Below are positions 10,168 through 32,000 of a stretch of DNA of 32,000 nt, piece after piece (the first letter of the stretch is position 1; every line of letters begins with the position of its first letter). The stretch covers positions 1,260,001 through 1,292,000 of the forward strand of contig JANQNC010000001.1 of the NCBI GenBank assembly GCA_028279745.1, given 5' to 3'. Both the position numbers and the translations under genes were made by a program. Source of the stretch: Candidatus Nanoarchaeia archaeon. GTDB taxonomy: Archaea > Nanobdellota > Nanobdellia > Woesearchaeales > JANQNC01. The notes under the pieces are model-generated. The model searched no databases. It saw only the letters and a program-made list of their open reading frames with translations, and had not been told where the DNA came from.

Positions 10168-10198
10168 TTTTATCACCTATCCCTTAGTCCTTATAATT

Positions 10199-13865: not shown

Positions 13866-15066
13866 TATAGTCGTAGTGGGCGGAGGCCCTGCAGGGTTGA
13901 GCTCAGCTTTGGAGCTAGGCAACAAGAAAGGACTCAAAGTTTTGCTTATAGAGAAAAACAGGATAGGCGTATCTACAAAAACAACTTCTATCTGGAAAAA
14001 TCAGCTAAGAAAGTTTGATCTACAAAAGTGTGCATACAACAACACTGAAACTTTTAGCGTTGCTTCGTCTGTAGATAGTATGAGGTCAACACATAGGGGA
14101 GATATGAGCATGGTAGACCTATCTAAAGCCCTAAACAGCCTTAAGAAAAGGATAAAAAATTGCGAAATTAGGGAAAACACCGAGCTTAAAAACTTCAGCT
14201 ATGTAGACGGAGGATTATCGCTTGATACTAACAAAGGAGAGATAAAAACCAAGTTACTCATAGACGCTTCAGGTTACAAAGGAGTATCAACAAAAAAATT
14301 TGGTCTTCAGAAAAACATGTTTTTCTACCAGTGCTACGCTATGGAGTGTAAAGTCCCTGATTATGATACTGATTCAGTCCTGCTTTGGGACCTTTTCGAT
14401 AAAACAAAAAAAACCAGCTTCTGGATAGATGTCTTTTCGAAAAGAGATATTGTAGTTGGTGTGATGATGATAAGAAAGAGAAAGTGTTCTTATGAAAAAT
14501 TGGAAAAAGAATTAAGAAGATACATAAAAAAGAAAAAGATAGTTTGCAACCCCATAGGGAAAAGGTGGGGTATCCTGCCCATGTATAACTTTGAAAAGGC
14601 ATATTTTGAAAGGGTCTTGCTGGTTGGAGATGCTGCATCACAGGTGATACCTGGCAGCGGATACGGGTTTATGTCTGCTCTAAAAAATGGAAAGATAGCA
14701 GGCAAGGTTGCGTATAAAGCGATAAAAAAAGGTAACTGCAGCGAGGTATTTCTTAAATTGTATTCAAAACTGTGGAAGTCAGGAAAGATAAGAAAGTATG
14801 ACCTTAATGCACTTTTACTTTTCCTGGAAACCAAGATGACTCCTGCAGAGACCGCTGCCAACGTAAAGATAATGAACCATCTATGTGACAAGGATGCAAA
14901 AGATATACTTACAGATGTACATGATATCAAGCTTATGGCAAAGGAACTGTTCTGGGCGTTTAAGGAGATACCTATACTAAAAATATTCAAACGATTTACG
15001 CTTAGGGACTATCCTGTATTTTTTGGTTTGGTCTTAAAGATTGTCAAGGACATGGTCTGGTTTTAA
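13849..15066 (+). CDS. FAD-dependent oxidoreductase, geranylgeranyl reductase / lycopene cyclase-like (paralog 2)
   Basis: YDIVVVGGGPAGLSSA, LLIDASGY, and LVGDAASQVIPGSGYG (a GDAA..V.P..GY motif). It overlaps the upstream gene by 17 nt. Confidence 0.8.
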   Translation: MTGEYDIVVVGGGPAGLSSALELGNKKGLKVLLIEKNRIGVSTKTTSIWKNQLRKFDLQKCAYNNTETFSVASSVDSMRSTHRGDMSMVDLSKALNSLKKRIKNCEIRENTELKNFSYVDGGLSLDTNKGEIKTKLLIDASGYKGVSTKKFGLQKNMFFYQCYAMECKVPDYDTDSVLLWDLFDKTKKTSFWIDVFSKRDIVVGVMMIRKRKCSYEKLEKELRRYIKKKKIVCNPIGKRWGILPMYNFEKAYFERVLLVGDAASQVIPGSGYGFMSALKNGKIAGKVAYKAIKKGNCSEVFLKLYSKLWKSGKIRKYDLNALLLFLETKMTPAETAANVKIMNHLCDKDAKDILTDVHDIKLMAKELFWAFKEIPILKIFKRFTLRDYPVFFGLVLKIVKDMVWF

Positions 15067-15068
15067 AA

Positions 15069-16322
15069 ATGAAAGAATACGATGTTGTGATAGCAGGAGG
15101 GGGTCCCGCAGGATTGAGCGCTGCGATGGAGATCGATAAATGTGAAGATATACGTTCACTTATACTAGAGAAGGGCAAGATCAATGTTTCTAAGAAATCA
15201 ATATGTGTCTGGAAACATCAGCTTAAAGATTGGGATGTTGAGGACTGTATCGACAATGAGCCAAGACTAATCAGCATAGGTTCATCTGTCAGCAATGAAT
15301 TCTCGATCCACAAAGGAGTGATGGCCGTGTTGAATGTTAACAAGATGCTGGAGAAATTCAGTAAAAGAATCAAAAAGTGTGAAGTTAAGCAGAATACCCG
15401 TCTGAACAGCTTTTATTATGTGGGTGATGGGCTTATCTTAAAAACGACCAGAGGAAAGATAAAAACAAAATTATTGATTGATGCAGCAGGCTATAAAAGC
15501 CCAGCTGTAAAGAAGTTCGGCTTGCAAAAAGACAATTTTTTTTATCAGTGTTTTGTAGTCGATTGTAAAGTTTCTGAGTATGACAAGATGAACGTTCAAC
15601 TGCTCTGGGAAATAATAGATTGGAAAAAAAAGGAAAACTTTTGGATAGAGGCACATTCAAAAAATTCGATCTCTATCGGTGTAATGACTGTGAGGAAAAA
15701 GAGATGTTCCTACGGATACCTCAAATCAAGAATTTTTGAGTATATAAAAAAAAAGAAAATCAAATGCACCCCCTGTGATTATAAGTGGGGGGTCTTGCCT
15801 ATGTATAACTTTGAGAAGACATATTTTAACAGGGTCCTGTTAGCGGGAGATTCTGCTTCACAGGTTTTGCCTAGCAGCGGGTACGGCTGTGCGGCAGCAC
15901 TAAGAAACGGGAGACTTGCAGGAAAAACATGCATCCGAGCTTTGCGCGAGGGAGACTATAGTGAGAAGTACCTTAAGTTTTACTCAAAAGCATGGAAGCA
16001 CAGTGTAATATGTAAGTATGACTTGAATGCGATCTTTCTGCTTATCCAGAGCAGGATGACTGCATCCGAAACAGAAGCATACATAAAGTTAGTGCAACAA
16101 CTTGACAACAGATCATATAGAGAAGCGCTGACAGGTTCAGGAAGACCTTCGCTTTTATTAATCGAATTTTATCTTTTTTTAAAAGAATTCCCTATATTAA
16201 ATGTGATAAAGAGGCTAAAAGTTAAAGATTATCTAAAATTGTTTGCTTTGACCCTGCGCCTGGTAAAAGATTCTTTCTACGAAACTTATCATAACCTAAT
16301 GGGGACTAACTGGCTGAAGTGA
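15069..16322 (+). CDS. FAD-dependent oxidoreductase, geranylgeranyl reductase / lycopene cyclase-like (paralog 3)
   Basis: YDVVIAGGGPAGLSAA, LLIDAAGY, and LAGDSASQVLPSSGYG. By eye it is roughly half identical to paralog 2. It starts 2 nt after the upstream stop. Confidence 0.8.
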   Translation: MKEYDVVIAGGGPAGLSAAMEIDKCEDIRSLILEKGKINVSKKSICVWKHQLKDWDVEDCIDNEPRLISIGSSVSNEFSIHKGVMAVLNVNKMLEKFSKRIKKCEVKQNTRLNSFYYVGDGLILKTTRGKIKTKLLIDAAGYKSPAVKKFGLQKDNFFYQCFVVDCKVSEYDKMNVQLLWEIIDWKKKENFWIEAHSKNSISIGVMTVRKKRCSYGYLKSRIFEYIKKKKIKCTPCDYKWGVLPMYNFEKTYFNRVLLAGDSASQVLPSSGYGCAAALRNGRLAGKTCIRALREGDYSEKYLKFYSKAWKHSVICKYDLNAIFLLIQSRMTASETEAYIKLVQQLDNRSYREALTGSGRPSLLLIEFYLFLKEFPILNVIKRLKVKDYLKLFALTLRLVKDSFYETYHNLMGTNWLK

Positions 16323-20830: not shown

Positions 20831-21625
20831 ATGTTATCAACTAAGAATGCAATCGAACCATTGATCGGGCTTGGACTAAATAAGTATGAGGCAAAAGTGT
20901 ACCTCACTTTGATAGGGGAAGGAATCAGTACAGCTAAGAATATTTCGGATATTACTGGAATCCCTTATGGAAAAGTTTATGAGGTTATAAACGCGTTGTC
21001 TTCAAAAGGGTTCTGCACGATACTTCCTTCAAAACCCATGAAGTGTCAGGCCATATCTCCTAGGGATGCTGTGATAAACGCAAAAAAAGATGTTGAAGAA
21101 AGATATGATAAGCTTGAAAGCCACATAGTGTCAGAGTTGGAGCCTCTGTTCGTAGAGAGCAGAAAGTTTGTGGAGCCCAAAGGGATATTCTGGGTGATAA
21201 ATGGGAGAGCAAACGTGGTGAAAAAGATAGATGAGCTTATCCAGAAGGCAGAGAAAAATATATGCATACACTGCTCACCAAATAGTCTTTCAAGACTTGT
21301 CCTGCATAAGGAGCTGTTGAGAGAGGCAAATAAAAGAGGCGTCAACATATCTATAGCAGGTGTTGTGAACAACGAAGTCCTTGAAGAGATAGACTCATTA
21401 GACTTTTGCGACATAAGAAAAGTAAAAAGTGCAAATAACAACTTGTTCTCTATAGACGATAAAGAGTGTTTGATAATAGAGCCGATGCCAGATGATGAGA
21501 ATATATTATATGGAAGAGACTTGGGAGTTTGGGTATCATCCTCTTCATTCACTAAGTTCATGTGCGATTTTTTTGCCACAAACTTTAAGAAAGCAAAATC
21601 TGTTTTTCCTCCTGTCAGTAAGTGA
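20831..21625 (+). CDS. TrmB family transcriptional regulator (paralog A)
   Basis: LGLNKYEAKVYLTLIGEGISTAKNISDITGIPYGKVYEVINALSSKGF is a canonical TrmB winged-HTH. A C-terminal TrmB-type effector domain follows. The GGGGGGGTGA SD-like motif lies 6 nt upstream of the ATG. Confidence 0.85.
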   Translation: MLSTKNAIEPLIGLGLNKYEAKVYLTLIGEGISTAKNISDITGIPYGKVYEVINALSSKGFCTILPSKPMKCQAISPRDAVINAKKDVEERYDKLESHIVSELEPLFVESRKFVEPKGIFWVINGRANVVKKIDELIQKAEKNICIHCSPNSLSRLVLHKELLREANKRGVNISIAGVVNNEVLEEIDSLDFCDIRKVKSANNNLFSIDDKECLIIEPMPDDENILYGRDLGVWVSSSSFTKFMCDFFATNFKKAKSVFPPVSK

Positions 21626-21688
21626 ACAGGATACTTTTTTTTCTTAATATAAAAAATAGATAAATATTCTTTATGTAACTACAAGATT

Positions 21689-22486
21689 ATGGAAAACACT
21701 GACAGAGCGTTTAGGATACTGTCTGATATCGGACTGAATAAATATGAAGCAAAAGTGTATCTAACATTGGTGAGTGAAGGGGTAAGCACCGCAAAGAACA
21801 TATCAGAAATTACGGGGATCCCATATGGGAAAGTATATGAGATAATAAACACTTTATCATATAAAGGATTTTCTATGATACTCCCTTCAAAACCTATGAA
21901 GTATACGGCAATATCGCCAAAACAGGTTCTTTTCTCTTCTAAGAACGAGACGCTAGATAAGTTTAGGAAAATAGAAACAGATATAGTGAACAATCTGGAA
22001 CCTTTGTTTATGAAAAACAGGCAGTTCACACAACCAAAGAGTGTGTTCTCACTAGTCAACGGCAGATCTAGTGTAGTGAAGAAGACTGAGGAGCTGATAA
22101 ACAAGGCTAACAAAAATATACATATCCAGTGCAGTGCAAATTCATTGTCGCGGCTAGTGCTCCACAAAGAGGCGTTGAAAAATGCTGCAGACAGAGATGT
22201 AAAAATAGCTATTGCAGGCATAACCGATGAGAGCAATAAGAAAGAGATAAGCTCTTTAGGGTTTTGTGATGTAAGGCAGATAAAAAGATCAAGAAGCAAT
22301 TTCATCTCAGTAGACGCGAGTGAGTGTTTAGTTGTGACCCCCTTTCCAGACGATGAGAACATAATCTTCGGAAGAGATACAGGAATGCACATACTAAGCA
22401 GCTCATTCACGTCTTTTACTGATAATTTTTTCATATCAAGTTTTAATAGAGCAAAAAAGATTGATTTATCCACTAAGCTGAGATAA
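21689..22486 (+). CDS. TrmB family transcriptional regulator (paralog B)
   Basis: IGLNKYEAKVYLTLVSEGVSTAKNISEITGIPYGKVYEIINTLSYKGF. It is colinear with paralog A over its full length and roughly 55 percent identical by eye. Confidence 0.85.
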   Translation: MENTDRAFRILSDIGLNKYEAKVYLTLVSEGVSTAKNISEITGIPYGKVYEIINTLSYKGFSMILPSKPMKYTAISPKQVLFSSKNETLDKFRKIETDIVNNLEPLFMKNRQFTQPKSVFSLVNGRSSVVKKTEELINKANKNIHIQCSANSLSRLVLHKEALKNAADRDVKIAIAGITDESNKKEISSLGFCDVRQIKRSRSNFISVDASECLVVTPFPDDENIIFGRDTGMHILSSSFTSFTDNFFISSFNRAKKIDLSTKLR

Positions 22487-22583
22487 AAAACTTACCTGAT
22501 ATCTCTTGATTAAAAAAGAATAATAACTTCTTTCCCTTAGACTTTCAAAAAATAACTTTAAACGTAAAAGGGTGAGGGTCAAA

Positions 22584-25500
22584 ATGGTAAAAATAATGAA
22601 CTTTAAGTCTATCAAATCTATTTTATTTCTGTTTGTATTTTTTTTGTCTATCGTAGTTGTATCTGCAGCAAACTGTTGGGATTATGATCTCCAAACTAAT
22701 TGTGAAAGTGCAGACTGTAGCTGGAATGAAGATCCCTGGGGGGGATGGTGTGAGGAAAAAGGATGCTGGAATTTTTGGTCAGAAAATGAATGTACAAGTT
22801 CGACAAGCACTATAAATAGATCTTGCAGCTGGCAATCATCTTCATCAGGTTATTGTGGGGAGTTGGATTGTTGGTCTTTTGACGGGACAAACGAGACAGC
22901 ATGCGTAAATAATACATATAACATAGAATGTGAATGGATAGATGAATATAATGCAACAACCTGGGACTTCCCCTGTATGGGCCCTCCAGAAAAACAATGC
23001 TGGAACTATACAACATCTGAATCCTGCAGTGCGGTTGCAGGGTGTAGCTGGGGGATGTGCTCTAAAAAGGATTGTTGGGACTATTCTGATACGGATGAAT
23101 ACACTTGTGAATCTCAAGTCGGATTCAACAAAAAATCTTGCGAATGGAAAAGCTATTCTTGGGGCAGTGAATGTGTAGAACGAGGGTGTTGGGACTATAG
23201 CAATGTAACTTCTTGTGAATCAAATGGATGTAAGTGGGACGGAAGCTGTATGGAGCTTTCTTGTGGAGAATTTACTGGAGTAAATGAAAGTTATTGTGTA
23301 AGCAACAGCGCAAACCTAAGCTGTGAATGGGATTCAGCAGGTAAGTGGTGTATGGAAAAAGGATGCTGGAACAATGATGAAGGAAGTTGTGACAACGGCC
23401 TTGGCTGTTTTTGGGATACTTTTGAAGGGGGGTGGTGTCAAGAGCAAGGGTGCTGGAACTGGGAAAATAACCAGACAGCATGTGAAGATACAGGTCTTCA
23501 TCCAGGACTTGAATGCACTTATGATGTTAGCGGAGGGTGGTGTTATGAAGACGTTGGCTCCAAATCCTGTGCAGACATCAACGTAGAAAGAGACTGCATG
23601 GATACTTTTTACTGTTGGTGGGATCACTCTCAGAGCACATGCAACGATCCTGGCGCAGGTATAGAGACTGAGTTTGAAGAATGGAACCCTGGCTGTTATA
23701 TCTTTGATATGGATCAAAATGCCTGTGGAAATGTTACTGGTTGTTATTGGAGCGGCGGTGTGTGTGAAACAAACATGACTGTGCTTCCTACTAATGAACT
23801 AAACTGCAGCCTTATACAAGACTCAGATATGTGTAATAACATACCTGCATTGAGCAGCTGCTGCAGCTGGCAAGCTGGAGAGTGTGTGGCAGATAGATTC
23901 GATCAGTCTTGTCGTGAGGAGATGCAGGAACCGCCTGAAGGAGCACATTATTGTGAAGACTATGTGGCATACACAAGCAAAGATGTATGTGAACAGATAG
24001 CGGGAAGCCCCTGGTTTATGCCGTGCGAGTTTGATAATTCTACTGAAAGATGTGAGTTTAAAGGAGATGATGTCTTTGGAGATGGAGACAAGAACATAAT
24101 GAAGATAGACAATGAGATAAATTGTGAAGCTGCAGGAGGAAAATGGATCCTTGACACATATCCGAGTACGAACAATGCAAGCACAGCCGTAAGACTATCT
24201 CTTGGAAGATGTGACTTTAAATTTGATGAAGAAAGAAACTGCAACAAGGAATGTTTTGCATGTGAGTACAAACAAGACAAGACAAATTGGGGTACCGTTG
24301 CAGATGCAAGGAAAGCATGTGTCGATTCAGAGCTTGGACTTTGTAGATTTATAGAAGATCCAGATGCGCCAAACAGCTACGGTTATTGCGAACCAAAAGA
24401 GGAATTCAAGAAAGGGCTTGTAGGGGGAGACTGCAGCACTGATTGTGGTGCATGCACCTATATGGGAGACCCTGCAGCATCAGCAGGAAAAAGGCCATCA
24501 GATTACTGTGAGGGCAGCGATGCAAAATGCAAGTGGGTAGCAGATCCTTCACATCCTGATGATGAAAGCTTTGGAAGATGTGCATCAAAATCCGAAAAGA
24601 CATGTGAGGATAGATGCGATAAATGTTATGATGAAAGCAACTGTCAAAGCACAGGAGGAAAACAAGGAGACTCAAGTGCAGCAGCAGTATGTGAATGGAA
24701 CAATGGAATATGCTCATATAAATCGGGAGCAAGCGAGATGGAAGTATGTTGGGATGGACAGGACAACAACGGGGATAATAAGGTAGACTGCGCAGATTCT
24801 ATGTGCTGGTCAGACCCCTTTTGTGGCGGAGAGTTCATGTTTGGAGACTTCGGAAAAGACTGTTTCATGTTTAACGAACAATCAAGCTGTGAAACTGAAG
24901 GTTGTGCATGGGTAAACGAGAACTGGGGCGCATGGTGTGACATGCCTGGAGCAGTATGCTGGAAAAAAGACGGAACAAACCAGACAGTTTGTGAAGATGG
25001 CGGAAGCTGTGAATGGCACTCAGGCTTCGGAGGATTCTGCGAGCAGGACTGGGATATGGGGGGAGCTGCAAACTCATGCTTCTCAGCGACAAACCAGACA
25101 GGCTGTCAAGCACTATCAGACCAGAACTGCACCTGGGTTATCGACGAATGGTGCAGCGAAAAAGGAGGATTCTGTGACCCAGACCCTTCTTACAGCGGAG
25201 CATGGTATGATTGTGCACAGCATGACGTGGATGGAAATGCAACTTGTGAATCACATGCAGAATGCAACTGGTATGTGGATCCTTGGTGTCAGCAACAAGG
25301 AAGCGATGCAGGATTCTGTGATCACAAAAGCTTTGCGTGCTGGCAGTATGATGACGGTCAAAACATATGTGAGAATTCAACAAACTCAGAGTGGTGTGTC
25401 TGGATGACTGACCCTTACTCTCCTGAAGGAGGATTCTGTGAAGGAAAGATGATGAGTGGAGAATCAGGAAGCTGTTGGGATCAGAGCAACCAGACCAGCT

Positions 25501-28460
25501 GCAGCGAAGCATCAGGATGCAGATGGATGAGTGGATTCTGTGACCCTCCTGGATTTGGAGGAGAGATGATGCCTGGAATGCCTGGCGGTGAAGGAGAAGG
25601 ATCTGGAGGAGACCTGGGAGGATTTGGAATGCAGTGTTTCCTACATGATGGGGATCAGACAAGCTGCGAAGACCAGACAGGATGCGGATGGTTTAATGAG
25701 CCAAATCCGTTCTGTGACATAAACTTTGAAAGCAACTGTCCGCAGTACTCGTATGATCAAACTGTGTGCGCAGACAACGCAAAATGTAAATGGAATCCTC
25801 AAGGTAATTTCTGTGATGAAAAGCCATTTGAGTGTTTCTGGAACACTACACTATGGGCAGATGAGACTTTGTGTGATGCACATCCGTTATGCTACTGGTC
25901 TGATGAGGCAGGTGATGACCATTGCCACCCTATAGGGTTCAGCGTCTCAACAGAGTCAGCGTGTGATGCATTAGGAGACAGCTTCAGGTGGACAACAGGA
26001 TGGTGCAACCCTGCACTAGCGACTGAGTTCTTCAGTGGGATGGAGATGGGCGGACCGCCGGTACCGTTAGGAAGCGATCCAGATGATTCTGTATTTGAAG
26101 ATGAAGTAGACATAACTGAGTTTGGGATGAAAGACATGGGCAATGCATTTGGATTTGGAGTTACTGTGGATGACCCGCAAAATTCAGCGGCGTGCAACAA
26201 TGTGAAGATGGAGACGGGTACAGGTACAGGAACAAACACGACAAAATTCTACTGGTACCTGGATACTGATGGAAACACGACAAATAACTGTGACTTAAGG
26301 CACAGCTCGGGCTCAGGAGGTTATGAATTTTACATAAAGAACGAATGGAGCTATGATGAAAGCACAGGGACCACAACAGAAAGTCCAGCAGCTTACAGGT
26401 GTTTAGATGGTGAGTGGAATCTTGCAGAGGTAAGAGTTAGCAGTCAAAAGCAGCTGATGTGTAACCAGATTGGCGGAGCGATGGTAGCTATAGACAAGAC
26501 AGAGCTTGAAAAATTCCCAAGTCTATACTCTACAAACGTGGATATAAGAGTTGCAGTAGCAAGCGCAGATAGTGATGGAACTGCCTCAAACCCAACAGAC
26601 ACAGCGAGCCCAGGGTGGGTAACTCCAGGTTCACAAGACTTTGAGATACCAGAACTTTATGGATACGAGACTGACTGGATCAAAAAAGCATCTAATGAAG
26701 CAGCAGGAGCAGGTTTTGTACAGTATAATAAGGAAGCGGATTGCTGGACTGAAGAGGGATGTGAAGATTACAGCTGTAAAGGGCACACGTTCTGCGTAGA
26801 AAACAATTATGGTGTTGAGTCAGCAGGGTGGACTGATACAAGAGTCCCTAAACTTATAGGGTCAATAAAAGAAACATACCCTGATGGGGCATTTTTCGCT
26901 TATTTTACAGACAAACCTGCAAATGGAACTTTCTTGCTTTATGGAGATGATGAGATATGCAGCGAGTCAAGCTTGACAGATGCGATATATGACGTCGGGA
27001 TATACAGCAACTATAGCAAAGAGTACAAGCTGTGGCATACGGCAGAGCTTTTCAACGACTCAGGAGTGAACTCATTAAACGCACCATTATCTTCAGGAAC
27101 AACATACTACTATAAGATCAAAGTGTGTGATGAAGGAGGTAAATGTGGGATGAGCAAGTGTTCAAGCTTTAGGACAGAAGAATCTCAAGAAGACTGTACG
27201 TTCTGTAAGTTTGTTTCAAGGATAAAAGCGCCTGATGGATGGAACGTCTATTACGACATAGACCAGGATGGAAATTATGAGCACTGGCAAGGAAACGTTC
27301 TGGGAACAAAAGACGGCATGTTTACAAACTATACCCTTGGCAGGAAAGCAAATATACTCATCAACACAACTGATGGAACCGCACATATGGAGTTCATAAA
27401 TGCGACGCTTACCAAGACAGGTATGAGTCCAAAGATAAGAGACATAGAGACAAGCACAGCTCTAAAACAAGGAACGCTGAACACATCGTCAGGTGAAGAG
27501 ATAGGGTATGTGGGGATGATAGAAGAGACAAGGGACAAGATTATACATAATTTATACCCCGAGATATGTAGGATCAAGATACCTGGAACGGGATCATGTG
27601 ATGAGTTATGGCACTGTGACAGTGATGGAGAAAATTGTGTTGATAGGACAGCAGAGGCTACTTTGGTAAGTACGGGATCAGACTCGTGCGAATGGCAGCT
27701 ACCCTACTGTGAGTTCTCGACTTGGGCAGGAGGTCAGCCAGCCACTCCTTCAAGCAGCTCAAGCAGCTCTGGAGGAGGGGGAGGAGGCGGTTCCGGCGGA
27801 ATTGCAGGAAGCACCTCATCAACTTCGGTTGTTGAAGTATCTCACTACTACACATCGATAGCTGAAGGTGAAAGTATAACCCTGCCAATAGAAAAGGAAG
27901 GGATAGCGCTCACTAAAAACACGTTCATCGCTGGAGAAGATTTAAGTGATATGAACCTGGTGATGAGAAAAGTAGAGAATAGTTCAGAGCTTCCTAAAAA
28001 AGAGGAGGATGCATATCAATATCTAGAGATAACTGCATCAAACGTAGAAGCAAGCAGCATATCAAAAGCTACGTTAGAATTTAAGGTAGATACAAGCTGG
28101 ATGACTGGCAATGACTATGGAGATGTAATCCTTAAAAGATATACAGATGGATGGGATGAACTTCCGACAAGATTCATCAAGACTGAAGGAAGATACTCGC
28201 ATTACAGCGCAGAAACACCTGGCTTTAGCTATTTTGCGATAGTTGGGATAAAGGATGATCTGGCTGATGCAGAACAACAAGACTTACCTCAGCAGGAGCA
28301 GCAGCAAGACCCCGAGCTTGAAGAAACAGATACACCTCAACAGCAAGTGACGGGAGCTGCGGTAGCGCCTGGTGGGGGAGAAGGTGTGAGTGTGACAAAC
28401 ATCCTTATCTTTGTAGTCCTATTGGGTACGGTGGTGCTTATAATTGCAAAGAAGAGATAA
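22584..28460 (+). CDS. giant Cys/Trp-rich repeat surface protein (1,958 aa) with signal peptide, two 4-Cys module arrays, FN3-like and PGF-pre-PGF-like domains, and a C-terminal TM anchor
   Basis: Single uninterrupted ORF. I prefer the ATG at 22584, with GGTGA 8 nt upstream, over the track's GTG at 22572. Signal peptide is MVKIMNFKSIKSILFLFVFFLSIVVVSA. The C-terminus ILIFVVLLGTVVLIIAKKR is a TM helix. See findings for the domain map. Confidence 0.9.
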   Translation: MVKIMNFKSIKSILFLFVFFLSIVVVSAANCWDYDLQTNCESADCSWNEDPWGGWCEEKGCWNFWSENECTSSTSTINRSCSWQSSSSGYCGELDCWSFDGTNETACVNNTYNIECEWIDEYNATTWDFPCMGPPEKQCWNYTTSESCSAVAGCSWGMCSKKDCWDYSDTDEYTCESQVGFNKKSCEWKSYSWGSECVERGCWDYSNVTSCESNGCKWDGSCMELSCGEFTGVNESYCVSNSANLSCEWDSAGKWCMEKGCWNNDEGSCDNGLGCFWDTFEGGWCQEQGCWNWENNQTACEDTGLHPGLECTYDVSGGWCYEDVGSKSCADINVERDCMDTFYCWWDHSQSTCNDPGAGIETEFEEWNPGCYIFDMDQNACGNVTGCYWSGGVCETNMTVLPTNELNCSLIQDSDMCNNIPALSSCCSWQAGECVADRFDQSCREEMQEPPEGAHYCEDYVAYTSKDVCEQIAGSPWFMPCEFDNSTERCEFKGDDVFGDGDKNIMKIDNEINCEAAGGKWILDTYPSTNNASTAVRLSLGRCDFKFDEERNCNKECFACEYKQDKTNWGTVADARKACVDSELGLCRFIEDPDAPNSYGYCEPKEEFKKGLVGGDCSTDCGACTYMGDPAASAGKRPSDYCEGSDAKCKWVADPSHPDDESFGRCASKSEKTCEDRCDKCYDESNCQSTGGKQGDSSAAAVCEWNNGICSYKSGASEMEVCWDGQDNNGDNKVDCADSMCWSDPFCGGEFMFGDFGKDCFMFNEQSSCETEGCAWVNENWGAWCDMPGAVCWKKDGTNQTVCEDGGSCEWHSGFGGFCEQDWDMGGAANSCFSATNQTGCQALSDQNCTWVIDEWCSEKGGFCDPDPSYSGAWYDCAQHDVDGNATCESHAECNWYVDPWCQQQGSDAGFCDHKSFACWQYDDGQNICENSTNSEWCVWMTDPYSPEGGFCEGKMMSGESGSCWDQSNQTSCSEASGCRWMSGFCDPPGFGGEMMPGMPGGEGEGSGGDLGGFGMQCFLHDGDQTSCEDQTGCGWFNEPNPFCDINFESNCPQYSYDQTVCADNAKCKWNPQGNFCDEKPFECFWNTTLWADETLCDAHPLCYWSDEAGDDHCHPIGFSVSTESACDALGDSFRWTTGWCNPALATEFFSGMEMGGPPVPLGSDPDDSVFEDEVDITEFGMKDMGNAFGFGVTVDDPQNSAACNNVKMETGTGTGTNTTKFYWYLDTDGNTTNNCDLRHSSGSGGYEFYIKNEWSYDESTGTTTESPAAYRCLDGEWNLAEVRVSSQKQLMCNQIGGAMVAIDKTELEKFPSLYSTNVDIRVAVASADSDGTASNPTDTASPGWVTPGSQDFEIPELYGYETDWIKKASNEAAGAGFVQYNKEADCWTEEGCEDYSCKGHTFCVENNYGVESAGWTDTRVPKLIGSIKETYPDGAFFAYFTDKPANGTFLLYGDDEICSESSLTDAIYDVGIYSNYSKEYKLWHTAELFNDSGVNSLNAPLSSGTTYYYKIKVCDEGGKCGMSKCSSFRTEESQEDCTFCKFVSRIKAPDGWNVYYDIDQDGNYEHWQGNVLGTKDGMFTNYTLGRKANILINTTDGTAHMEFINATLTKTGMSPKIRDIETSTALKQGTLNTSSGEEIGYVGMIEETRDKIIHNLYPEICRIKIPGTGSCDELWHCDSDGENCVDRTAEATLVSTGSDSCEWQLPYCEFSTWAGGQPATPSSSSSSSGGGGGGGSGGIAGSTSSTSVVEVSHYYTSIAEGESITLPIEKEGIALTKNTFIAGEDLSDMNLVMRKVENSSELPKKEEDAYQYLEITASNVEASSISKATLEFKVDTSWMTGNDYGDVILKRYTDGWDELPTRFIKTEGRYSHYSAETPGFSYFAIVGIKDDLADAEQQDLPQQEQQQDPELEETDTPQQQVTGAAVAPGGGEGVSVTNILIFVVLLGTVVLIIAKKR
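22674..24060 (+). repeat. protein-level tandem array A: about 13 copies of the 4-Cys module C-[WF]-x5-9-C-x4-9-C-x-W-x3-10-C
   Basis: Hand-parsed modules include CWDYDLQTNCESADCSWNEDPWGGWC, CWNFWSENECTSSTSTINRSCSWQSSSSGYC, CWDYSNVTSCESNGCKWDGSC and CWNNDEGSCDNGLGCFWDTFEGGWC. Some nucleotide identity exists between copies: GGAAAAAGGATGCTGGAA occurs near 22757 and again near 23353. Confidence 0.8.
24861..26010 (+). repeat. protein-level tandem array B: about 9-10 further copies of the same 4-Cys module
   Basis: Examples are CFMFNEQSSCETEGCAWVNENWGAWC, CWKKDGTNQTVCEDGGSCEWHSGFGGFC, CWDQSNQTSCSEASGCRWMSGFC and CFLHDGDQTSCEDQTGCGWFNEPNPFC. Confidence 0.8.
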
Positions 28461-28514
28461 CCTTTTCTTCTTTTATCGAGGGGTTGTCGATAGGGTCAGG
28501 AGGTGTGTAAAACC

Positions 28515-29255
28515 ATGAGTCTTAAACTAACAGCTTGGTTGCTTGTAGCATTATGCTTGTCTTGTGCTGCATTATCGCTACCCCCAAATCCTGAACTTTA
28601 CTGGGGTTATGCATACATTGATAACAATCCAGCAAATGGAAGCTTGATAGCTGAGACTGGCGAAGGAGATATTATCGTTAATTTATCGCTTCCTATGGAT
28701 CCTGAGTACCCTGGCAGCTATAGCATAAAACTAACCTTCGACGACAAAATGACTCGGCACAGTAAAGAAGGAGCTACTGAAGGAGAAAAGATAGTGTGGA
28801 AGGTAGACGGATTGGTTGCAGCTATAACAGACACGGCTGAAAGAGACAAGGTAAACAATAATTTTAGCATAAAAGCGTTTACTCCAGTAAATATGACCGT
28901 AGGTAACTTAACGCACGATGCCATGGTGGATGTTGGAGAAATGGTAAAGATAAATGCAAAGGTTGAAAATAAAGGACAGATCGATATTGATGGATTTGAT
29001 GCGCTATTATACATAAATGATTCATTACAAGAAAAGGCACATGTTAACTATACTCTAAACGAGGGGGAGAACTTATCTGTTGCGTTCTACTGGCAAGCAG
29101 ATATAGAAGGGAACTATTCCTTTTCAGTTAACGTTTCAGCAAGAAACTGTGAAGAGTGCAAGATACAGAGAGCATCTTCCGCTTCGGCAATCTCAGTAGT
29201 GAGAAATGAGCAGGCCAACAACTCAGTATCAAACCTAAAAAATGAATCCTCTTGA
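28515..29255 (+). CDS. secreted CARDB-domain protein (246 aa from ATG 28515)
   Basis: Signal peptide MSLKLTAWLLVALCLSCAALS. The CARDB-like segment is VGEMVKINAKVENKGQIDIDGFDALLYINDS...EGENLSVAFYWQADIEGNYSFSVNV. GGAGGTG lies about 10 nt upstream of the ATG. It starts 54 nt after the giant gene, so it is probably co-transcribed. Confidence 0.75.
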   Translation: MSLKLTAWLLVALCLSCAALSLPPNPELYWGYAYIDNNPANGSLIAETGEGDIIVNLSLPMDPEYPGSYSIKLTFDDKMTRHSKEGATEGEKIVWKVDGLVAAITDTAERDKVNNNFSIKAFTPVNMTVGNLTHDAMVDVGEMVKINAKVENKGQIDIDGFDALLYINDSLQEKAHVNYTLNEGENLSVAFYWQADIEGNYSFSVNVSARNCEECKIQRASSASAISVVRNEQANNSVSNLKNESS

Positions 29256-29682: not shown

Positions 29683-30141
29683 CTAGTTTGCGCACGTACC
29701 TTCCAGCTTGTTTCCGTCGCCTGTAAAGTTATAGTAGGCACTGGTCTTTGCATCTTGGTAGTAGATGCTTGTAGTGTAGCTGAAGGACTGGCCAGCAGTG
29801 CAGGCTGCAATAGCACCTGTGTATGTTTTTGATCCGCCAGGGGCCAACGTGCTTGTTGAACTCTCAAGGTCAACACCATTAACCATAACATCAGTCAAAA
29901 CTATCTGGTTTCTTAGGTTGTTCTTAACGACTACAGTGTCGGTTCCACTTGCAGAGACTGCATAATCTGTAACTGCAACGTCTGCACTAGCCCAGTAAGA
30001 TGCTATCGCTCTTCCTGTAACGCCTTTTCCTATCCCTGGAATCCCCCCCATGGCAACAACAGCAAGTAATGCGATTGTAATTACTACTCCCACAATTATT
30101 ATGTATTCTGTTGCGCCTTGCGCTTTTTTAGAAAATCTCAT
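29683..30141 (-). CDS. archaeal type IV pilin-like protein with class III signal peptide (DUF361-type N-terminus)
   Basis: MRFSKKAQG/ATEYIIIVGVVITIALLAVV has a basic leader, then a G/A cleavage context, then the conserved E and hydrophobic helix typical of prepilin-peptidase substrates. I chose the ATG at 30141 because GAGGTGAT lies 8 nt upstream; the track start at 30153 is a GTG. Confidence 0.8.
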   Translation of the reverse strand: MRFSKKAQGATEYIIIVGVVITIALLAVVAMGGIPGIGKGVTGRAIASYWASADVAVTDYAVSASGTDTVVVKNNLRNQIVLTDVMVNGVDLESSTSTLAPGGSKTYTGAIAACTAGQSFSYTTSIYYQDAKTSAYYNFTGDGNKLEGTCAN

Positions 30142-30292
30142 TTTTATTATCACCTCTGATTTATTGCAAAAATTGTTTTTACTTACGGTATGGGGAATTA
30201 AAAACGTATTAACCTTTTTAGTACCTTTAAAAAGAGAAATTGTTTTATCTCCTGTGGGGAGTTAGTGGGGGAAGGGGGTTTTGATGGGTGAG

Positions 30293-31315
30293 CTATATTT
30301 TAAGGAATGCATCCATTACAAATCTTGATAATGCAAAAATGATAAAAGAGAACGTTATGATGAGCGGCGCATATTTTAATCCCTGTTTCTCATCCCCTTC
30401 AGAGATTACACCTGTCAGTATGCTTGCAAGTAACGAAGTTACAAATATTATGATCACAGAAAGCATAAAAATGAAATCTGGAGTTATGCTTACTGTTCCT
30501 GCTAGAAAGGACATTCCAAATTCAGCATCAGAAATATTTGAGGAAGACTGCATATTTGTTATTATCTTTATGAACTGTATTGAAACTGATAATAATAACG
30601 GCGCACCAAAACCAACTATAAATATTATAAGCATGCTGTACATCTTGGTATTTGCGACCAAGTCTTTCTTAAGCGATCTTGTTTCAGCGATGTCATTTGC
30701 AAGGTCTTCCAAGAGCTGGGCCAGCTGCCCGCCAGATCTTATTGAAGTGACGAAGAGCTTCATAGACCTTTCGAGCAAAGAAGATCTGCTTCTTCTTGAC
30801 ATGTCCAAAAGAGCTTTCCCAAAAGAGGTCATGCCTAACGACTTGTTAGTTGCAATCTCGATCTCCTCTTTCAAAGGTCCGAATTCTTTTCTTGCAGCCA
30901 GCTTCATAGCTTGAAAGGGAGTCATTCCTGCCCTAAGGTTTGAAGATATGATCTGGAGCATATCAGGCAACGACTCTTCAATCCTTCTTGTCTTGTCTGC
31001 AGCTTTTAGGTACACAATAAGATATACAAGAAGCTGCACTGCAAGTATAGATACCAAAGCAATAATGATGTATGCAGAGGAGAAAGACAAGTTTATGTAA
31101 CGCGTGTCTATGCTGACTGCATCTGGGAAAAAAAGTTTGTGCAACAACACAACTATAGAGAAGATAAGCATGGAGATTATTAATGAACTTCCGATCCAGT
31201 AATCAGTACTTTGCTCATTTTTCGTGTATGACAAGAGCTCTCCAAGGTGCTGTCTATATCCTGAAGGAGCTAACATCGTAAGTGATCTATACAACCTGTA
31301 TCGCACCCCCATCAT
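30293..31315 (-). CDS. type II secretion system F-domain pilus platform protein (TadC/PilC-like), 340 aa
   Basis: The T2SS-F signature is LPDMLQIISSNLRAGMTPFQAM...SIRSGGQLAQLLEDLANDI, flanked by TM helices. The true start is MMGVRYRL at 31315, which makes an ATGA overlap with the upstream stop. The track's upstream 63 codons overlap the preceding gene and look non-protein-like. Confidence 0.8.
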   Translation of the reverse strand: MMGVRYRLYRSLTMLAPSGYRQHLGELLSYTKNEQSTDYWIGSSLIISMLIFSIVVLLHKLFFPDAVSIDTRYINLSFSSAYIIIALVSILAVQLLVYLIVYLKAADKTRRIEESLPDMLQIISSNLRAGMTPFQAMKLAARKEFGPLKEEIEIATNKSLGMTSFGKALLDMSRRSRSSLLERSMKLFVTSIRSGGQLAQLLEDLANDIAETRSLKKDLVANTKMYSMLIIFIVGFGAPLLLSVSIQFIKIITNMQSSSNISDAEFGMSFLAGTVSITPDFIFMLSVIIIFVTSLLASILTGVISEGDEKQGLKYAPLIITFSFIIFALSRFVMDAFLKI

Positions 31316-32000
31316 ATGTTCACCACAGGTCTTCTTTTTTTTATCATGCCTATCATTATGATCTGCAACGCGAAACAGCACACGACAAACGCGATAAATG
31401 CAGCGTTGCTTAAGTTCATACCTGCAAAAGATGAAAGTATGACCATCATAGTGATGCCTATTGTCGGGATAGCAACAGCAAACAACATGTAGATCAAAGA
31501 CCACATGTTCAACTCTTTTGAATAGTCTTTTATCTTGGTCTTATGTTCATGAGTCAGATTGGCGATTATGGTCTTTAATGCGCTCTTGATGCTTGAGCCT
31601 GCGTGTATGGCATTTATCAGCTGCCACAACGTTTTTCTTAGATGTTCTGATCCGGACCTTACTGCAGCATTTTCAAGACTTTTATCTAATGGTGAACCTG
31701 TACTCACCTGTCTTGAAACTTTTCCAAACTCTTTGCTTATTAAACCATAATCTGATCTAGATATGTTGTCAATCGAATCATATAAAGAAGTTCCAGATCC
31801 GATCTGAAGCAGCATATCCTTAAGCGCAAAGACAAGGTTCTTCTCAAGCATATCTGCTTTTTTTCTTGCAAGTATCGAAGGATATCTCACAAGCAGGTAA
31901 AAAAGAATTGCAGAGAATATAACGCTGATCGAAACACTGATCAACAATGAGTTATGAATTCCTGCTTGTCTAATGAGATAAGCAAGGCTAAAAAAAAATG
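31312..32000 (-). CDS. type II secretion system F-domain pilus platform protein (TadB/PilC-like), N-terminus probably beyond window
   Basis: The T2SS-F signature is LVFALKDMLLQIGSGTSLYDSI...INAIHAGSSIKSAL, with C-terminal TM helices. The track start at 31947 is a TTG. The frame stays open to position 31998 (FFFSLAYLIRQAGIHNS...), so the start is undetermined. Confidence 0.75.
   Translation of the reverse strand, partial: FFFSLAYLIRQAGIHNSLLISVSISVIFSAILFYLLVRYPSILARKKADMLEKNLVFALKDMLLQIGSGTSLYDSIDNISRSDYGLISKEFGKVSRQVSTGSPLDKSLENAAVRSGSEHLRKTLWQLINAIHAGSSIKSALKTIIANLTHEHKTKIKDYSKELNMWSLIYMLFAVAIPTIGITMMVILSSFAGMNLSNAAFIAFVVCCFALQIIMIGMIKKRRPVVNI

What the first reader, a model, noticed from the sequence alone, without database searches (positions are those of the whole stretch)
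22584..28460. Giant surface protein built from about 22 copies of an unrecognised 4-cysteine, tryptophan-marked module
This is a 1,958-aa ORF with a signal peptide and a C-terminal TM anchor. Most of the first 1,150 residues resolve by eye into 25-45 aa modules with four invariant Cys and fixed aromatic positions: C-[WF]-x(5-9)-C-x(4-9)-C-x-W-x(3-10)-C. Examples are CWDYDLQTNCESADCSWNEDPWGGWC, CWNNDEGSCDNGLGCFWDTFEGGWC and CWDQSNQTSCSEASGCRWMSGFC. The modules fall into two arrays of about 13 and about 9-10 copies. Many modules carry an N-x-S/T sequon immediately before Cys2 (TNETAC, NVTSC, NESYC, NQTAC, NQTVC, NQTGC, GNATC, NQTSC), which suggests a conserved N-glycosylation position. My hand count is about 139 Cys (about 7 percent), extreme for an archaeal extracellular protein. 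I cannot assign the module to any named family. It only superficially recalls hevein/CBM18-type aromatic disulfide-knotted glycan binders (CCSWQAGEC; C-x-W...G-W-C). A glycan-binding adhesin role is therefore a hypothesis, not a call.
Basis: partly seen in the sequence, partly recalled or inferred. Interest (0 to 1): 0.85.

Follow-up and report, generated by a model that had tools for sequence, protein, structure and literature searches.

The report
Conserved giant cysteine-rich DPANN surface protein
This gene encodes a real, membrane-anchored, 1,958-residue archaeal surface protein built mostly from 21 copies of a small four-cysteine/tryptophan module that no domain database recognises; it has full-length relatives in at least 118 tiny (DPANN) archaeal species, and the same module also occurs in phage tail fibres and choanoflagellate surface proteins.

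Summary
ORF 22584-28460 (+) encodes 1,958 aa with 138 Cys (7.0%; other ORFs in the window have 0.3-2.9%), a signal peptide and a C-terminal TM helix. A relaxed motif finds 21 modules (12 + 9, plus two degenerate ones), against 2.4 in shuffles.

It is neither an assembly artefact nor a one-off. More than 110 full-length homologues (33-65% identity) exist, and 118 DPANN species genomes encode a relative. They keep 137 of the 138 Cys and invariant linker lengths. The gene has no DNA repeat longer than 32 nt.

No Pfam, NCBIfam or PDB profile recognises the module. PSI, hevein, Paramecium surface antigen and trefoil were tested and are not supported.

AlphaFold gives each module as turn, helix and beta-hairpin. 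Downstream lie Ig/FN3-like sandwiches, a PGF-pre-PGF domain and the anchor. N-glycosylation sequons are twice as frequent as expected and are position-specific.

A search of 1.84 billion proteins finds the module in only 110. These include phage tail-fibre proteins, choanoflagellate mucin-like membrane proteins and a Myxococcales protein.

Best reading: a rigid, disulfide-stapled, glycosylated surface stalk or coat protein. Glycan binding remains untested. The family and the module appear undescribed.

The parts
22571..22577 (+). Shine-Dalgarno-like GGTGAGG, 6 nt upstream of the ATG
   Evidence: Read from the sequence. The alternative GTG start at 22572 lies inside it, so the ATG at 22584 is the likely start.
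22584..28460 (+). CDS of the 1,958-aa giant Cys-rich surface protein (stop codon included)
   Evidence: An identical protein, P0001, is in NCBI on a 1.30-Mb contig.
22584..22670 (+). Signal peptide (aa 1-29; basic n-region, hydrophobic core, VSA|A)
   Evidence: Read from the sequence. Homologues have the same kind of N-terminus.
22674..23885 (+). Array 1: 12 four-Cys/Trp modules (aa 31-434), consensus CWSYDTNQTACENNLGCEWNSDTGGWC
   Evidence: Regex and shuffles, module table, HMM. All Cys are conserved in 90-100% of 111 homologues. Seven junctions have exactly 4 residues in all homologues. AF2 gives turn, helix and hairpin per module, with block-mean pLDDT mostly 75-89.
23910..24053 (+). Degenerate 13th module / transition (aa 443-490; 5 conserved Cys, PW)
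   Evidence: Sequence and conservation. It falls below the HMM threshold.
24240..24713 (+). Three six-Cys modules with C-x3-C-x2-C ... C ... C-x-[WF] ... C (aa 553-602, 617-666, 674-710)
   Evidence: CxxC positions 557, 621, 678. All Cys are 100% conserved. The 4-Cys HMM gives weak echoes at 640-655 and 683-708.
24738..24827 (+). Single acidic C-rich motif CWDGQDNNGDNKVDCADSMCWSDPFC (aa 719-748), teneurin C-rich/MopE-like, candidate Ca2+ site
   Evidence: PDB 7plp Teneurin-4: E 0.033 with the single sequence and E 0.003 with the family profile. NCBIfam acid_disulf_rpt: E 0.0014, 18.3 bits against a cutoff of 41. Borderline only.
24861..25925 (+). Array 2: 9 four-Cys/Trp modules (aa 760-1114)
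   Evidence: AF2 model B gives the same turn, helix and hairpin pattern.
25962..26006 (+). Degenerate terminal half-module (aa 1127-1141, C...W..GWC)
   Evidence: Sequence. Both Cys and both Trp are conserved.
26061..27743 (+). Beta-sandwich (Ig/FN3-like) region, aa ~1160-1720, with 20 conserved Cys and a conserved DxDxDG loop (aa 1558-1563)
   Evidence: AF2 model B is beta-rich here, with block pLDDT mostly 80-94. Foldseek against PDB gives DSCAM Ig array, FN3 arrays and SiiE at E 1.6e-4 to 1e-2. DxDxDG. High family conservation.
27744..27827 (+). Ser/Gly-rich flexible linker (aa 1721-1748)
   Evidence: Sequence. pLDDT <50. It is the cause of the spurious scFv-linker PDB hits.
27849..28247 (+). 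PGF-pre-PGF domain (aa 1756-1888)
   Evidence: NCBIfam TIGR04213: E 1.4e-21, 77.1 bits against a cutoff of 28. This is the least conserved part of the family.
28248..28391 (+). Acidic, Gln/Pro-rich spacer (aa 1889-1936)
   Evidence: Sequence.
28392..28457 (+). C-terminal transmembrane helix plus KKR tail (aa 1937-1958)
   Evidence: Sequence. Nearly all homologues share this feature. No PGF-CTERM model hit.

Best explanation
The gene encodes a type-I membrane glycoprotein. It is the local member of a conserved, stand-alone gene family that appears single-copy in Woesearchaeota/Pacearchaeota-type DPANN archaea.

The chain is exported by a Sec signal peptide and held in the membrane by one C-terminal helix. 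Reading outward from the membrane, it has:
- an acidic spacer;
- a PGF-pre-PGF domain;
- a flexible Ser/Gly linker;
- about 560 aa of Ig/FN3-like beta-sandwiches;
- a membrane-distal stretch of about 1,110 aa made of 21 mini-domains of roughly 27 aa.

Each mini-domain is a short turn at Cys1-Trp, a helix carrying Cys2, and a beta-hairpin carrying Cys3-x-Trp and Cys4. The two arrays are interrupted by three six-Cys modules and one acidic, probably Ca2+-binding motif.

Most likely mechanism (inferred): each mini-domain is stapled by two disulfides packed around the invariant Trp. Fixed-length linkers butt neighbouring modules together, so the arrays form a stiff, protease-resistant rod. That rod is heavily N-glycosylated and projects from the cell as a surface stalk or coat element. 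It serves envelope architecture and physical contact with partner cells or surfaces. On this reading the modules act as shaft elements, as they appear to do in phage tail fibres, and not as enzymes.

Shown: the architecture, its conservation, the module's secondary structure, the sequon enrichment, and the occurrence in phage fibres.
Inferred: the disulfides, the rigidity, the glycosylation and the cellular role.
For: - Architecture and topology.
- Core, constrained component. There are 222 database clusters, and the 120 listed are full-length or near-full-length at 33-65% identity. 118 species genomes encode a relative, and no genome appears twice among the 80 listed.
- Fixed framework. 137/138 Cys are conserved at >=80%, most at 100%. 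Linker lengths are invariant: 4 aa at seven junctions in 103-110 of 111 homologues, and 6 aa at two others.
- Native gene: GC3 is 0.39, the same as its neighbours, and it has a good RBS.
- Module fold: turn, helix and hairpin repeated throughout, mean pLDDT 74.6 and 78.6.
- Extracellular disulfide reading. The same module occurs in choanoflagellate type-I membrane mucin-like ectodomains. It also occurs in phage tail-fibre proteins (PHROG tail-fibre hits). One of those genes sits directly upstream of a thioredoxin-fold gene on a phage contig.
- Glycoprotein reading. There are 57.6 sequons per homologue against 29.9 in shuffles. The sequon at C2-4 is present in 38% of 2,284 modules and in 74-86% of modules 6, 7, 11 and 19.
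- Surface-gene surroundings: a CARDB protein, a class-III-signal pilin and T2SSF-like genes lie downstream.
Against: - There are no expression, proteomic or imaging data, so the cellular role is inferred from architecture alone.
- The organisms are thought to be anaerobic fermenters without respiratory chains. No exported thiol oxidoreductase lies in the window, so how about 69 disulfides would form is unexplained.
- The phage-fibre versions of the repeat have 3 Cys per 23-aa period. That cannot be two intramodule disulfides, so the pairing may differ from the assumption here.
- No gene neighbourhood is conserved to corroborate any function.
- One Woesearchaeota study reports separately annotated 'S-layer protein genes' among the top-expressed genes (PMC11606122). 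The envelope lattice may therefore be another protein.
Confidence: 0.5

Rival explanations
1. It is the S-layer protein proper: the chains self-assemble into the paracrystalline envelope lattice of these archaea. The Ig-like and PGF-pre-PGF parts would form the lattice or pillar, and the Cys-rich arrays the outer canopy.
For: - No genome appears twice among the 80 listed loci, the family is clade-wide, and its architecture is conserved.
- It has a C-terminal TM anchor, Ig-like sandwiches and a PGF-pre-PGF domain, as in other archaeal surface glycoproteins.
- Sequons are twice as frequent as expected.
- It carries candidate Ca2+ motifs.
Against: - No known S-layer family model matches.
- From general knowledge, S-layer proteins are typically Cys-poor and diverge fast. 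This protein has 7% Cys and a rigidly conserved framework.
- Other genes annotated as S-layer proteins are reported as highly expressed in Woesearchaeota MAGs (PMC11606122). Their identity was not checked.
Confidence: 0.2
2. One reading: a multivalent glycan-binding adhesin, in which each module presents exposed aromatic residues that bind sugars on host cells or polymers, in the manner of hevein/CBM18.
For: - Each roughly 27-aa module has three conserved aromatic positions: after Cys1, at Cys3+2 (Trp in 2,065 of about 2,280 module instances), and before Cys4.
- The module occurs in phage tail-fibre (receptor-binding) proteins.
- It also occurs next to beta-helix, PKD or MopE adhesin-type domains.
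Against: - Chitin_bind_1/hevein gives no hit in 129 modules at E<=10, nor in the whole protein.
- Hevein's 8-Cys pattern and CCS motif are absent, apart from one CC in module 12.
- What is conserved is the framework (Cys, Trp, linker lengths). The inter-Cys loops are the variable part. That fits a scaffold better than 21 conserved binding sites.
- The invariant Trp lies on the same hairpin face as Cys3 and Cys4 (inferred from the DSSP register), which suggests a core role and not an exposed one.
Confidence: 0.15
3. The four Cys of each module coordinate a metal (Zn, Fe or an Fe-S centre) instead of forming disulfides. That would give a metal-stabilised or even redox-active extracellular chain suited to anoxic habitats.
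For: - Each module has exactly four invariant Cys.
- The habitat and lifestyle are anoxic, which makes extracellular disulfides chemically awkward.
- Single modules give sporadic sub-threshold zinc-finger model hits (TRAF2_zf 4/129, zf-CCCH).
Against: - There are no CxxC knuckles in the 4-Cys module. The spacing, C-x7-12-C-x4-10-C-x-W-x4-13-C, is unlike known Cys4 sites.
- The same module sits in choanoflagellate secretory-pathway ectodomains and beside a phage thioredoxin gene, which points to disulfides.
- There are no CxxCH haem motifs.
Confidence: 0.05
4. Artefact: a chimeric or collapsed-repeat assembly, or a non-coding ORF.
For: None found. The only prior reason for concern is that repeat-rich genes are prone to misassembly.
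Against: - More than 110 independent full-length homologues are collinear over the whole length, with 137/138 Cys conserved.
- There is no tandem or dispersed DNA repeat longer than 32 nt in the gene.
- An identical protein is on a 1.30-Mb NCBI contig.
Confidence: 0.01

Closest known systems
PSI (plexin-semaphorin-integrin) domain, Pfam PF01437
   Same: - Both are small extracellular Cys-rich domains with short helices plus a small beta-hairpin and a C-x-W signature.
- The mid-region modules also carry a C-x2-C, as PSI does.
- PSI is the best, though non-significant, Pfam hit for single modules (3/129, best E 0.0033).
- Four of the top six Foldseek PDB hits for model A are semaphorins, which contain PSI (E 2.4-6.7).
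   Different: - This module has 4 Cys in about 27 aa; PSI has 8 Cys in about 50 aa.
- It has no W-C pair.
- hhalign against the PDB-verified MET and integrin beta3 PSI sequences aligns only the CxW, with probability 0.7%.
- No hit reaches the Pfam threshold.
- Nothing therefore supports membership; this is at best a distant structural analogue.
Hevein / CBM18 chitin-binding domain (PF00187)
   Same: Both are small, aromatic-rich and Cys-rich, and one module contains CCSWQAGEC.
   Different: - There is no profile hit at any threshold tried.
- The 8-Cys hevein framework is absent.
- The CC doublet occurs in only one of the 21 modules.
Cys-rich surface coat proteins of protists (Giardia VSPs; Paramecium/Tetrahymena surface antigens, PF01508)
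   Same: - These are also large surface proteins with 7-12% Cys in periodic small modules that cover the cell. Giardia VSPs have a C-terminal TM anchor and a short basic tail (general knowledge).
- Paramecium_SA is the most frequent weak Pfam hit (9/129 modules, best E 0.0083).
   Different: - All hits are below threshold.
- The periodicity and motifs differ: VSPs are CxxC-rich, whereas this module has none.
- The lineage is archaeal.
- The resemblance is functional and not one of membership.
Archaeal cell-surface / S-layer glycoproteins with PGF-pre-PGF or PGF-CTERM ends (e.g. Haloferax volcanii csg)
   Same: - All are Sec-exported, N-glycosylated, Ig-like beta-sandwich proteins with C-terminal membrane attachment.
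- The PGF-pre-PGF domain (TIGR04213) matches at E 1.4e-21.
   Different: - This protein has no PGF-CTERM sorting signal; it has a plain TM helix instead.
- About 1,110 aa of Cys-rich modules have no counterpart in those proteins.
- No S-layer family model matches.
Phage tail-fibre proteins carrying the same repeat (uncharacterised; e.g. P0143, P0159, P0209)
   Same: - Tandem modules of the form C-[ST]-x-[YF]-x-G-[DN]-[QE]-x-x-C-E-x-x-x-G-C-x-W are detected by the module profile at E 1e-20 to 1e-4 against 1.84 billion proteins.
- Their N-termini hit PHROG tail-fibre families.
- One is on a contig with terminase, portal and capsid genes.
   Different: - The period is 23 aa with 3 Cys, because Cys4 is merged with the next Cys1.
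- The proteins are shorter (400-900 aa).
- They have no TM anchor and no Ig or PGF-pre-PGF part.
Teneurin C-rich domain / MopE-type acidic double-disulfide motif
   Same: aa 719-748, CWDGQDNNGDNKVDCADSMC, aligns with the Teneurin-4 C-rich domain 7plp at E 0.003 with the family profile.
   Different: - There is only one copy.
- It is below the NCBIfam cutoff (18.3 against 41 bits).
- It is a minor part of the protein.

Membership tests
PGF-pre-PGF domain-containing proteins (NCBIfam TIGR04213) | Score above the curated cutoff for the domain model | tested here: met
   77.1 bits against a cutoff of 28, E 1.4e-21, aa 1756-1888.
PGF-CTERM / archaeosortase A substrates | C-terminal PGF motif followed directly by a TM helix and basic tail (PGF-CTERM model) | tested here: not met
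   No PGF-CTERM model hit in NCBIfam. The C-terminus reads ...APGGGEGVSVTNILIFVVLLGTVVLIIAKKR, with no PGF before the helix. The only PGF lies at the C-terminal end of the pre-PGF domain, about 55 residues upstream of the TM helix.
PSI domain (PF01437) | Pfam gathering score; 8-Cys framework with C-x-W-C | tested here: not met
   No hit in the full protein at E<=1. 3/129 modules hit at E>=0.0033, which is not significant after 129 tests. hhalign probability is 0.7% against the MET and integrin beta3 PSI sequences. The module has 4 Cys and no W-C.
PSI domain (PF01437) | Shared three-dimensional fold | tested here: inconclusive
Hevein / CBM18 (PF00187) | Profile match; 8 Cys with a CCS...G.CG core | tested here: not met
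   No PF00187 hit for the protein or for any of 129 modules at E<=10. CC occurs in only one module.
Hevein / CBM18 (PF00187) | Binding of chitin or GlcNAc oligomers | not testable with these tools
   Needs recombinant protein and binding assays.
Paramecium surface antigen repeat (PF01508) / Trefoil (PF00088) | Pfam gathering score | tested here: not met
   Paramecium_SA: 9/129 modules, best E 0.0083. Trefoil: 7/129 modules, best E 0.022. Neither was reported for the whole protein.
Known archaeal S-layer protein families (Pfam and NCBIfam S-layer models) | Match to any S-layer family profile | tested here: not met
   The only hits were PGF_pre_PGF and sub-threshold noise.
Known archaeal S-layer protein families | Self-assembly into a 2-D lattice; dominant envelope protein | not testable with these tools
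   Needs cryo-ET or proteomics.
Ig/FN3-like beta-sandwich arrays | Fold similarity of aa ~1160-1720 to Ig/FN3 tandem domains | tested here: met
   Foldseek against PDB: 11 hits at E<=1e-3 (DSCAM Ig1-8, GH84C cohesin-FN3, SiiE, LAR FN3). The model is confident here (block pLDDT mostly 80-94). At sequence level there is only Ig_Rha78A_N at E 0.0025-0.012.
Teneurin C-rich / MopE-like acidic double-disulfide motif (NF033662; PF11617) | Score above the curated cutoff | tested here: inconclusive
   NF033662 scores 18.3 bits against a cutoff of 41. PDB 7plp gives E 0.003 with the family profile. No PF11617 hit.
The DPANN giant Cys-rich protein family itself (unnamed) | Full-length collinearity with a conserved Cys framework | tested here: met
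   The window protein aligns end to end with 110 homologues. 137/138 Cys are conserved at >=80%. Identity is 33-65%.

The most novel reading that the evidence does not exclude
The four-Cys/Trp module is the founding member of an undescribed, cross-domain class of extracellular mini-domain. It is shared by DPANN archaea, tailed phages, a myxobacterium and choanoflagellates. The giant protein built from it would be the principal surface or host-contact organelle of Woesearchaeota/Pacearchaeota-type archaea. Its roughly 69 disulfides would imply an as yet unknown extracytoplasmic oxidative-folding route, or dependence on a host or the environment for oxidation, in organisms that lack respiratory chains.
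Probability: 0.3. Interest if true: 0.8.

Novelty: new variant of a known kind. Interest (0 to 1): 0.64.

Why it matters
Woesearchaeota- and Pacearchaeota-type DPANN archaea are abundant and, as far as I know, uncultured. They are presumed to live attached to other cells. How their envelope is built and how they contact partners is unknown.

A stand-alone, clade-wide surface protein of about 2,000 aa, apparently single-copy, with an almost invariant 138-Cys framework is a concrete candidate for that role. It is also a handle for antibodies, proteomics and cryo-ET.

It raises a biochemical puzzle too: how do anaerobes with minimal genomes, reported to lack Cys biosynthesis in at least some lineages (PMC11606122), make and oxidise such a protein?

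Separately, the module is a compact fold unit that no domain database recognises. It recurs in phage tail fibres and choanoflagellate surface mucins, so defining it would annotate proteins in three domains of life and in viruses.

Tried and rejected
- **Named Cys-rich families.** PSI, hevein/CBM18, Paramecium_SA, trefoil and zinc-finger models were all sub-threshold or absent.
- **PDB by sequence.** I tried the single protein, the module profile and the full family profile. The only hits were Ser/Gly-linker artefacts and a borderline teneurin C-rich motif.
- **Misassembly or collapsed repeat.** Rejected.
- **Horizontal transfer as the cause of the raised GC.** Rejected. GC3 is 0.39, like the neighbours, so the GC excess is compositional.
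- **Conserved operon or neighbourhood.** None found. Only the closest relative, L001, shares the TrmB/PHP/PhoU-like neighbours. De novo clustering of ORFs from 80 loci found no neighbour family in more than 7 loci, apart from antisense shadow ORFs.
- **Exported thiol oxidoreductase in the window.** None found.
- **PGF-CTERM sorting.** Not present.
- **Literature.** Six full-text searches and four papers opened. No description of the family or the module was found (65, 66, 68, 76).
- **Exact-sequence contig look-up of P0001.** Nothing returned. The organism's name and the rest of its genome were therefore not obtained.
Full report

Yes. The window holds one long ORF on the + strand, 22572..28460. 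The ATG at 22584 is preceded at 6 nt by GGTGAGG, and the alternative GTG lies inside that ribosome-binding site.

It contains 138 Cys (7.0%) and 75 Trp (3.8%). The other 23 ORFs of the window have 0.3-2.9% Cys.

A relaxed version matches 21 times: 12 in aa 31-434 and 9 in aa 760-1114 (shuffles: mean 2.4, max 7). A Cys-anchored table and an HMM built from modules of seven family members recover the same 21 units. The HMM has 27 positions and the consensus CWSYDTNQTACENNLGCEWNSDTGGWC.

**2. Is it an artefact?**

No. The gene has no tandem repeat and no dispersed DNA repeat longer than 32 nt, so the modules are old and diverged. Its third-position GC (0.39) equals that of its neighbours. The raised overall GC of the gene (0.45; one search shows the local rise) is therefore a consequence of amino-acid composition and not of foreign origin.

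An identical protein is on record from a 1.30-Mb NCBI contig.

**3. Relatives**

A search of 5.8 billion protein clusters found 222 hits. The best 120 are full-length or near-full-length proteins, mostly 1,800-2,150 aa, at 33-65% identity. Where they have names, these are only 'hypothetical' or 'PGF-pre-PGF domain-containing protein', from Woesearchaeota, Pacearchaeota, Nanoarchaeota or Aenigmarchaeota MAGs. They have 103-174 Cys (most of the full-length ones 130-174), a signal peptide, and a C-terminal hydrophobic helix with a basic tail.

In a MAFFT alignment of 111 full-length members, 137 of the window protein's 138 Cys are conserved in at least 80% of sequences, most in 100%. The Trp two residues after Cys3 is likewise conserved. 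The least conserved part is the C-terminal 200 aa.

Inter-module linkers do not vary in length. Seven junctions have exactly 4 residues in 103-110 homologues, and two have exactly 6.

A scan of one genome per GTDB species found 118 genomes with a relative, and no genome appears twice among the 80 listed. These include the complete genome of Archaeon GW2011_AR15.

The neighbourhood is not conserved beyond the nearest relative. De novo clustering of flanking ORFs in 80 loci found no recurrent partner. This is a stand-alone gene. The surroundings in the window are archaeal: two TrmB regulators, geranylgeranyl reductases, a CARDB protein, a class-III-signal pilin and T2SSF-like genes.

**4. Anatomy**

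- NCBIfam places a PGF-pre-PGF domain at aa 1756-1888 (E 1.4e-21). There is no PGF-CTERM signal.
- Pfam gives nothing for the rest.
- AlphaFold2 was run with 48-sequence alignments. aa 28-765 gave mean pLDDT 74.6, and aa 750-1760 gave 78.6.
- Every 4-Cys module has the same secondary structure: a short helical turn at Cys1-Trp, a helix that carries Cys2, and a beta-hairpin with Cys3-x-Trp on the first strand and Cys4 on the second.
- From the strand register, Cys3, the Trp and Cys4 face the same side of the hairpin. That is presumably the side that packs on the helix (inference).
- aa ~1160-1720 is confidently beta-rich (block pLDDT mostly 80-94). It matches Ig/FN3 tandem arrays in the PDB at E 1.6e-4 to 1e-2.
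- Between the two arrays lie three six-Cys modules with C-x3-C-x2-C. There is also one acidic motif, CWDGQDNNGDNKVDCAD, that weakly matches the Teneurin-4 C-rich domain (E 0.003 with the family profile).
- One conserved DxDxDG loop sits in the beta region.

**5. Is the module a known domain?**

No test says so.

- The module profile finds nothing in the PDB at E<=10.
- Scanning 129 individual modules against Pfam at E<=10 gives only scattered sub-threshold hits: Paramecium_SA 9, trefoil 7, TRAF2_zf 4 and PSI 3, with a best E of 0.0033. That is not significant for 129 queries.
- Hevein never appears.
- Foldseek of the Cys-rich model against the PDB has no hit below E 2.4. Four of the top six are PSI-bearing semaphorins, which made PSI worth testing.
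- I verified MET and integrin beta3 PSI sequences against the PDB and compared them with the module profile by hhalign. Only the C-x-W aligns, with probability 0.7%.
- PSI is therefore at most a distant analogue.

**6. Where else is the module?**

An exhaustive HMMER search of 1.84 billion representatives found only 110 proteins at E<=1e-3. Besides family members and fragments, they include:

- longer DPANN variants with about 41 matched stretches (2,537-2,670 aa);
- a beta-helix/NosD protein with modules and a TM anchor;
- a Myxococcales MopE-related protein;
- two choanoflagellate (Savillea parva, Stephanoeca diplocostata) type-I membrane proteins, in which modules alternate with Thr/Ser/Pro-rich mucin-like linkers;
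- a group of 400-900-aa proteins with tandem 23-aa versions of the repeat.

Several of that last group hit PHROG tail-fibre families at their N-termini. One lies on a contig with terminase, portal and capsid genes and is followed directly by a thioredoxin-fold gene. It also has a relative in IMG/VR. None of these proteins gets a Pfam call for the module either.

**7. Glycosylation**

Family members carry on average 57.6 N-x-S/T sequons, against 29.9 after shuffling. The position four residues before Cys2 is Asn in 47% of 2,284 module instances and a full sequon in 38%. In modules 6, 7, 11 and 19 the figure is 74-86%.

When that residue is Asn, S/T follows at +2 in 82% of cases. When it is not Asn, the figure is 40% (derived). 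This argues for selection on the sequon itself and not only on helix capping, although the position is also the N-cap of the Cys2 helix.

**8. Interpretation**

The best-supported reading is a membrane-anchored, heavily glycosylated surface stalk or coat protein. Its distal two-thirds would be a stiff rod of disulfide-stapled mini-domains.

Several observations favour a structural scaffold:
- the invariant Cys/Trp framework;
- the invariant linker lengths, set against variable loops;
- the use of the module in phage fibre proteins;
- the stand-alone, clade-wide, apparently single-copy distribution.

The eukaryotic secretory context and the phage thioredoxin neighbour favour disulfides over metal sites.

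Whether the protein is the S-layer itself, a spike above it, or a host-contact fibre cannot be decided here. One study lists separately annotated S-layer genes among highly expressed Woesearchaeota genes and notes missing Cys biosynthesis (PMC11606122).

How about 69 disulfides would be formed by such organisms is unexplained. No exported oxidoreductase lies in the window.

**9. Novelty**

The sequence is public but uncharacterised. Six full-text searches and four papers gave no description of the family or the module.

I rate it a new variant of a known kind: an archaeal anchored surface glycoprotein carrying an undescribed, cross-domain mini-domain.

Noticed in passing
L081 4674-7527 (phage-like contig JAPJDW010000163): A tail-fibre-like gene carrying the module (P0143) is followed directly by a 175-aa thioredoxin-fold gene, then by terminase, portal and capsid genes. 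The thioredoxin gene could be a dedicated folding oxidoreductase for the Cys-rich fibre.
   Followed up: partly
P0127 (Savillea parva), P0165 (Stephanoeca diplocostata), P0174 (Myxococcales): The same 4-Cys/Trp module occurs in choanoflagellate mucin-like type-I membrane proteins and in a myxobacterial MopE-related protein. None of them has a Pfam annotation for the module.
   Followed up: partly
P0125, P0133-P0135, P0143, P0170: The phage-fibre versions of the repeat have a 23-aa period with only 3 Cys, because Cys4 coincides with the next Cys1. Their Cys pairing must differ from two intramodule disulfides; it could be interchain, or a metal site in a trimer.
   Followed up: no
window 25152-25211 (aa 857-876, junction between modules 15 and 16): Most homologues have 61-63 residues here, where the window protein has 19. 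The window protein therefore lacks one or two modules that are present in most relatives. This explains its 138 Cys against the common 152.
   Followed up: partly
window 20831-22486: Two tandem TrmB-family transcription regulators lie immediately upstream of the giant gene. The nearest relative, L001, also has both (65-72% identity), but more distant relatives do not.
   Followed up: partly
window 12663-16322: Three consecutive paralogous FAD-dependent, geranylgeranyl-reductase-like genes (Lycopene_cycl/FAD_binding_3 hits).
   Followed up: no
window 30293-31947 (- strand): Two overlapping minus-strand ORFs (30293-31504 and 31312-31947) each hit T2SSF. This looks like a split or frameshifted FlaJ/TadC-like membrane platform gene, next to a pilin with a class-III signal peptide (29683-30153).
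   Followed up: no
window 28503-29255: A secreted CARDB-domain protein is encoded 43 nt downstream of the giant gene, with its own GGAGGTG ribosome-binding site. A T-rich stretch follows the giant gene's stop codon.
   Followed up: no
BFVD hit W5S4M1 / W5S5S1 (Pithovirus sibericum): The best viral structure matches to the Cys-rich model are two small Pithovirus proteins, one annotated as transmembrane. The first has E 0.19, 39 columns and 31% identity; the second has E 3.0. Neither is significant, but they are the only compact matches.
   Followed up: no
window 9451-10801 (- strand): A KaiC-like ATPase (E 6.6e-65) lies next to a rhomboid-family protease gene.
   Followed up: no
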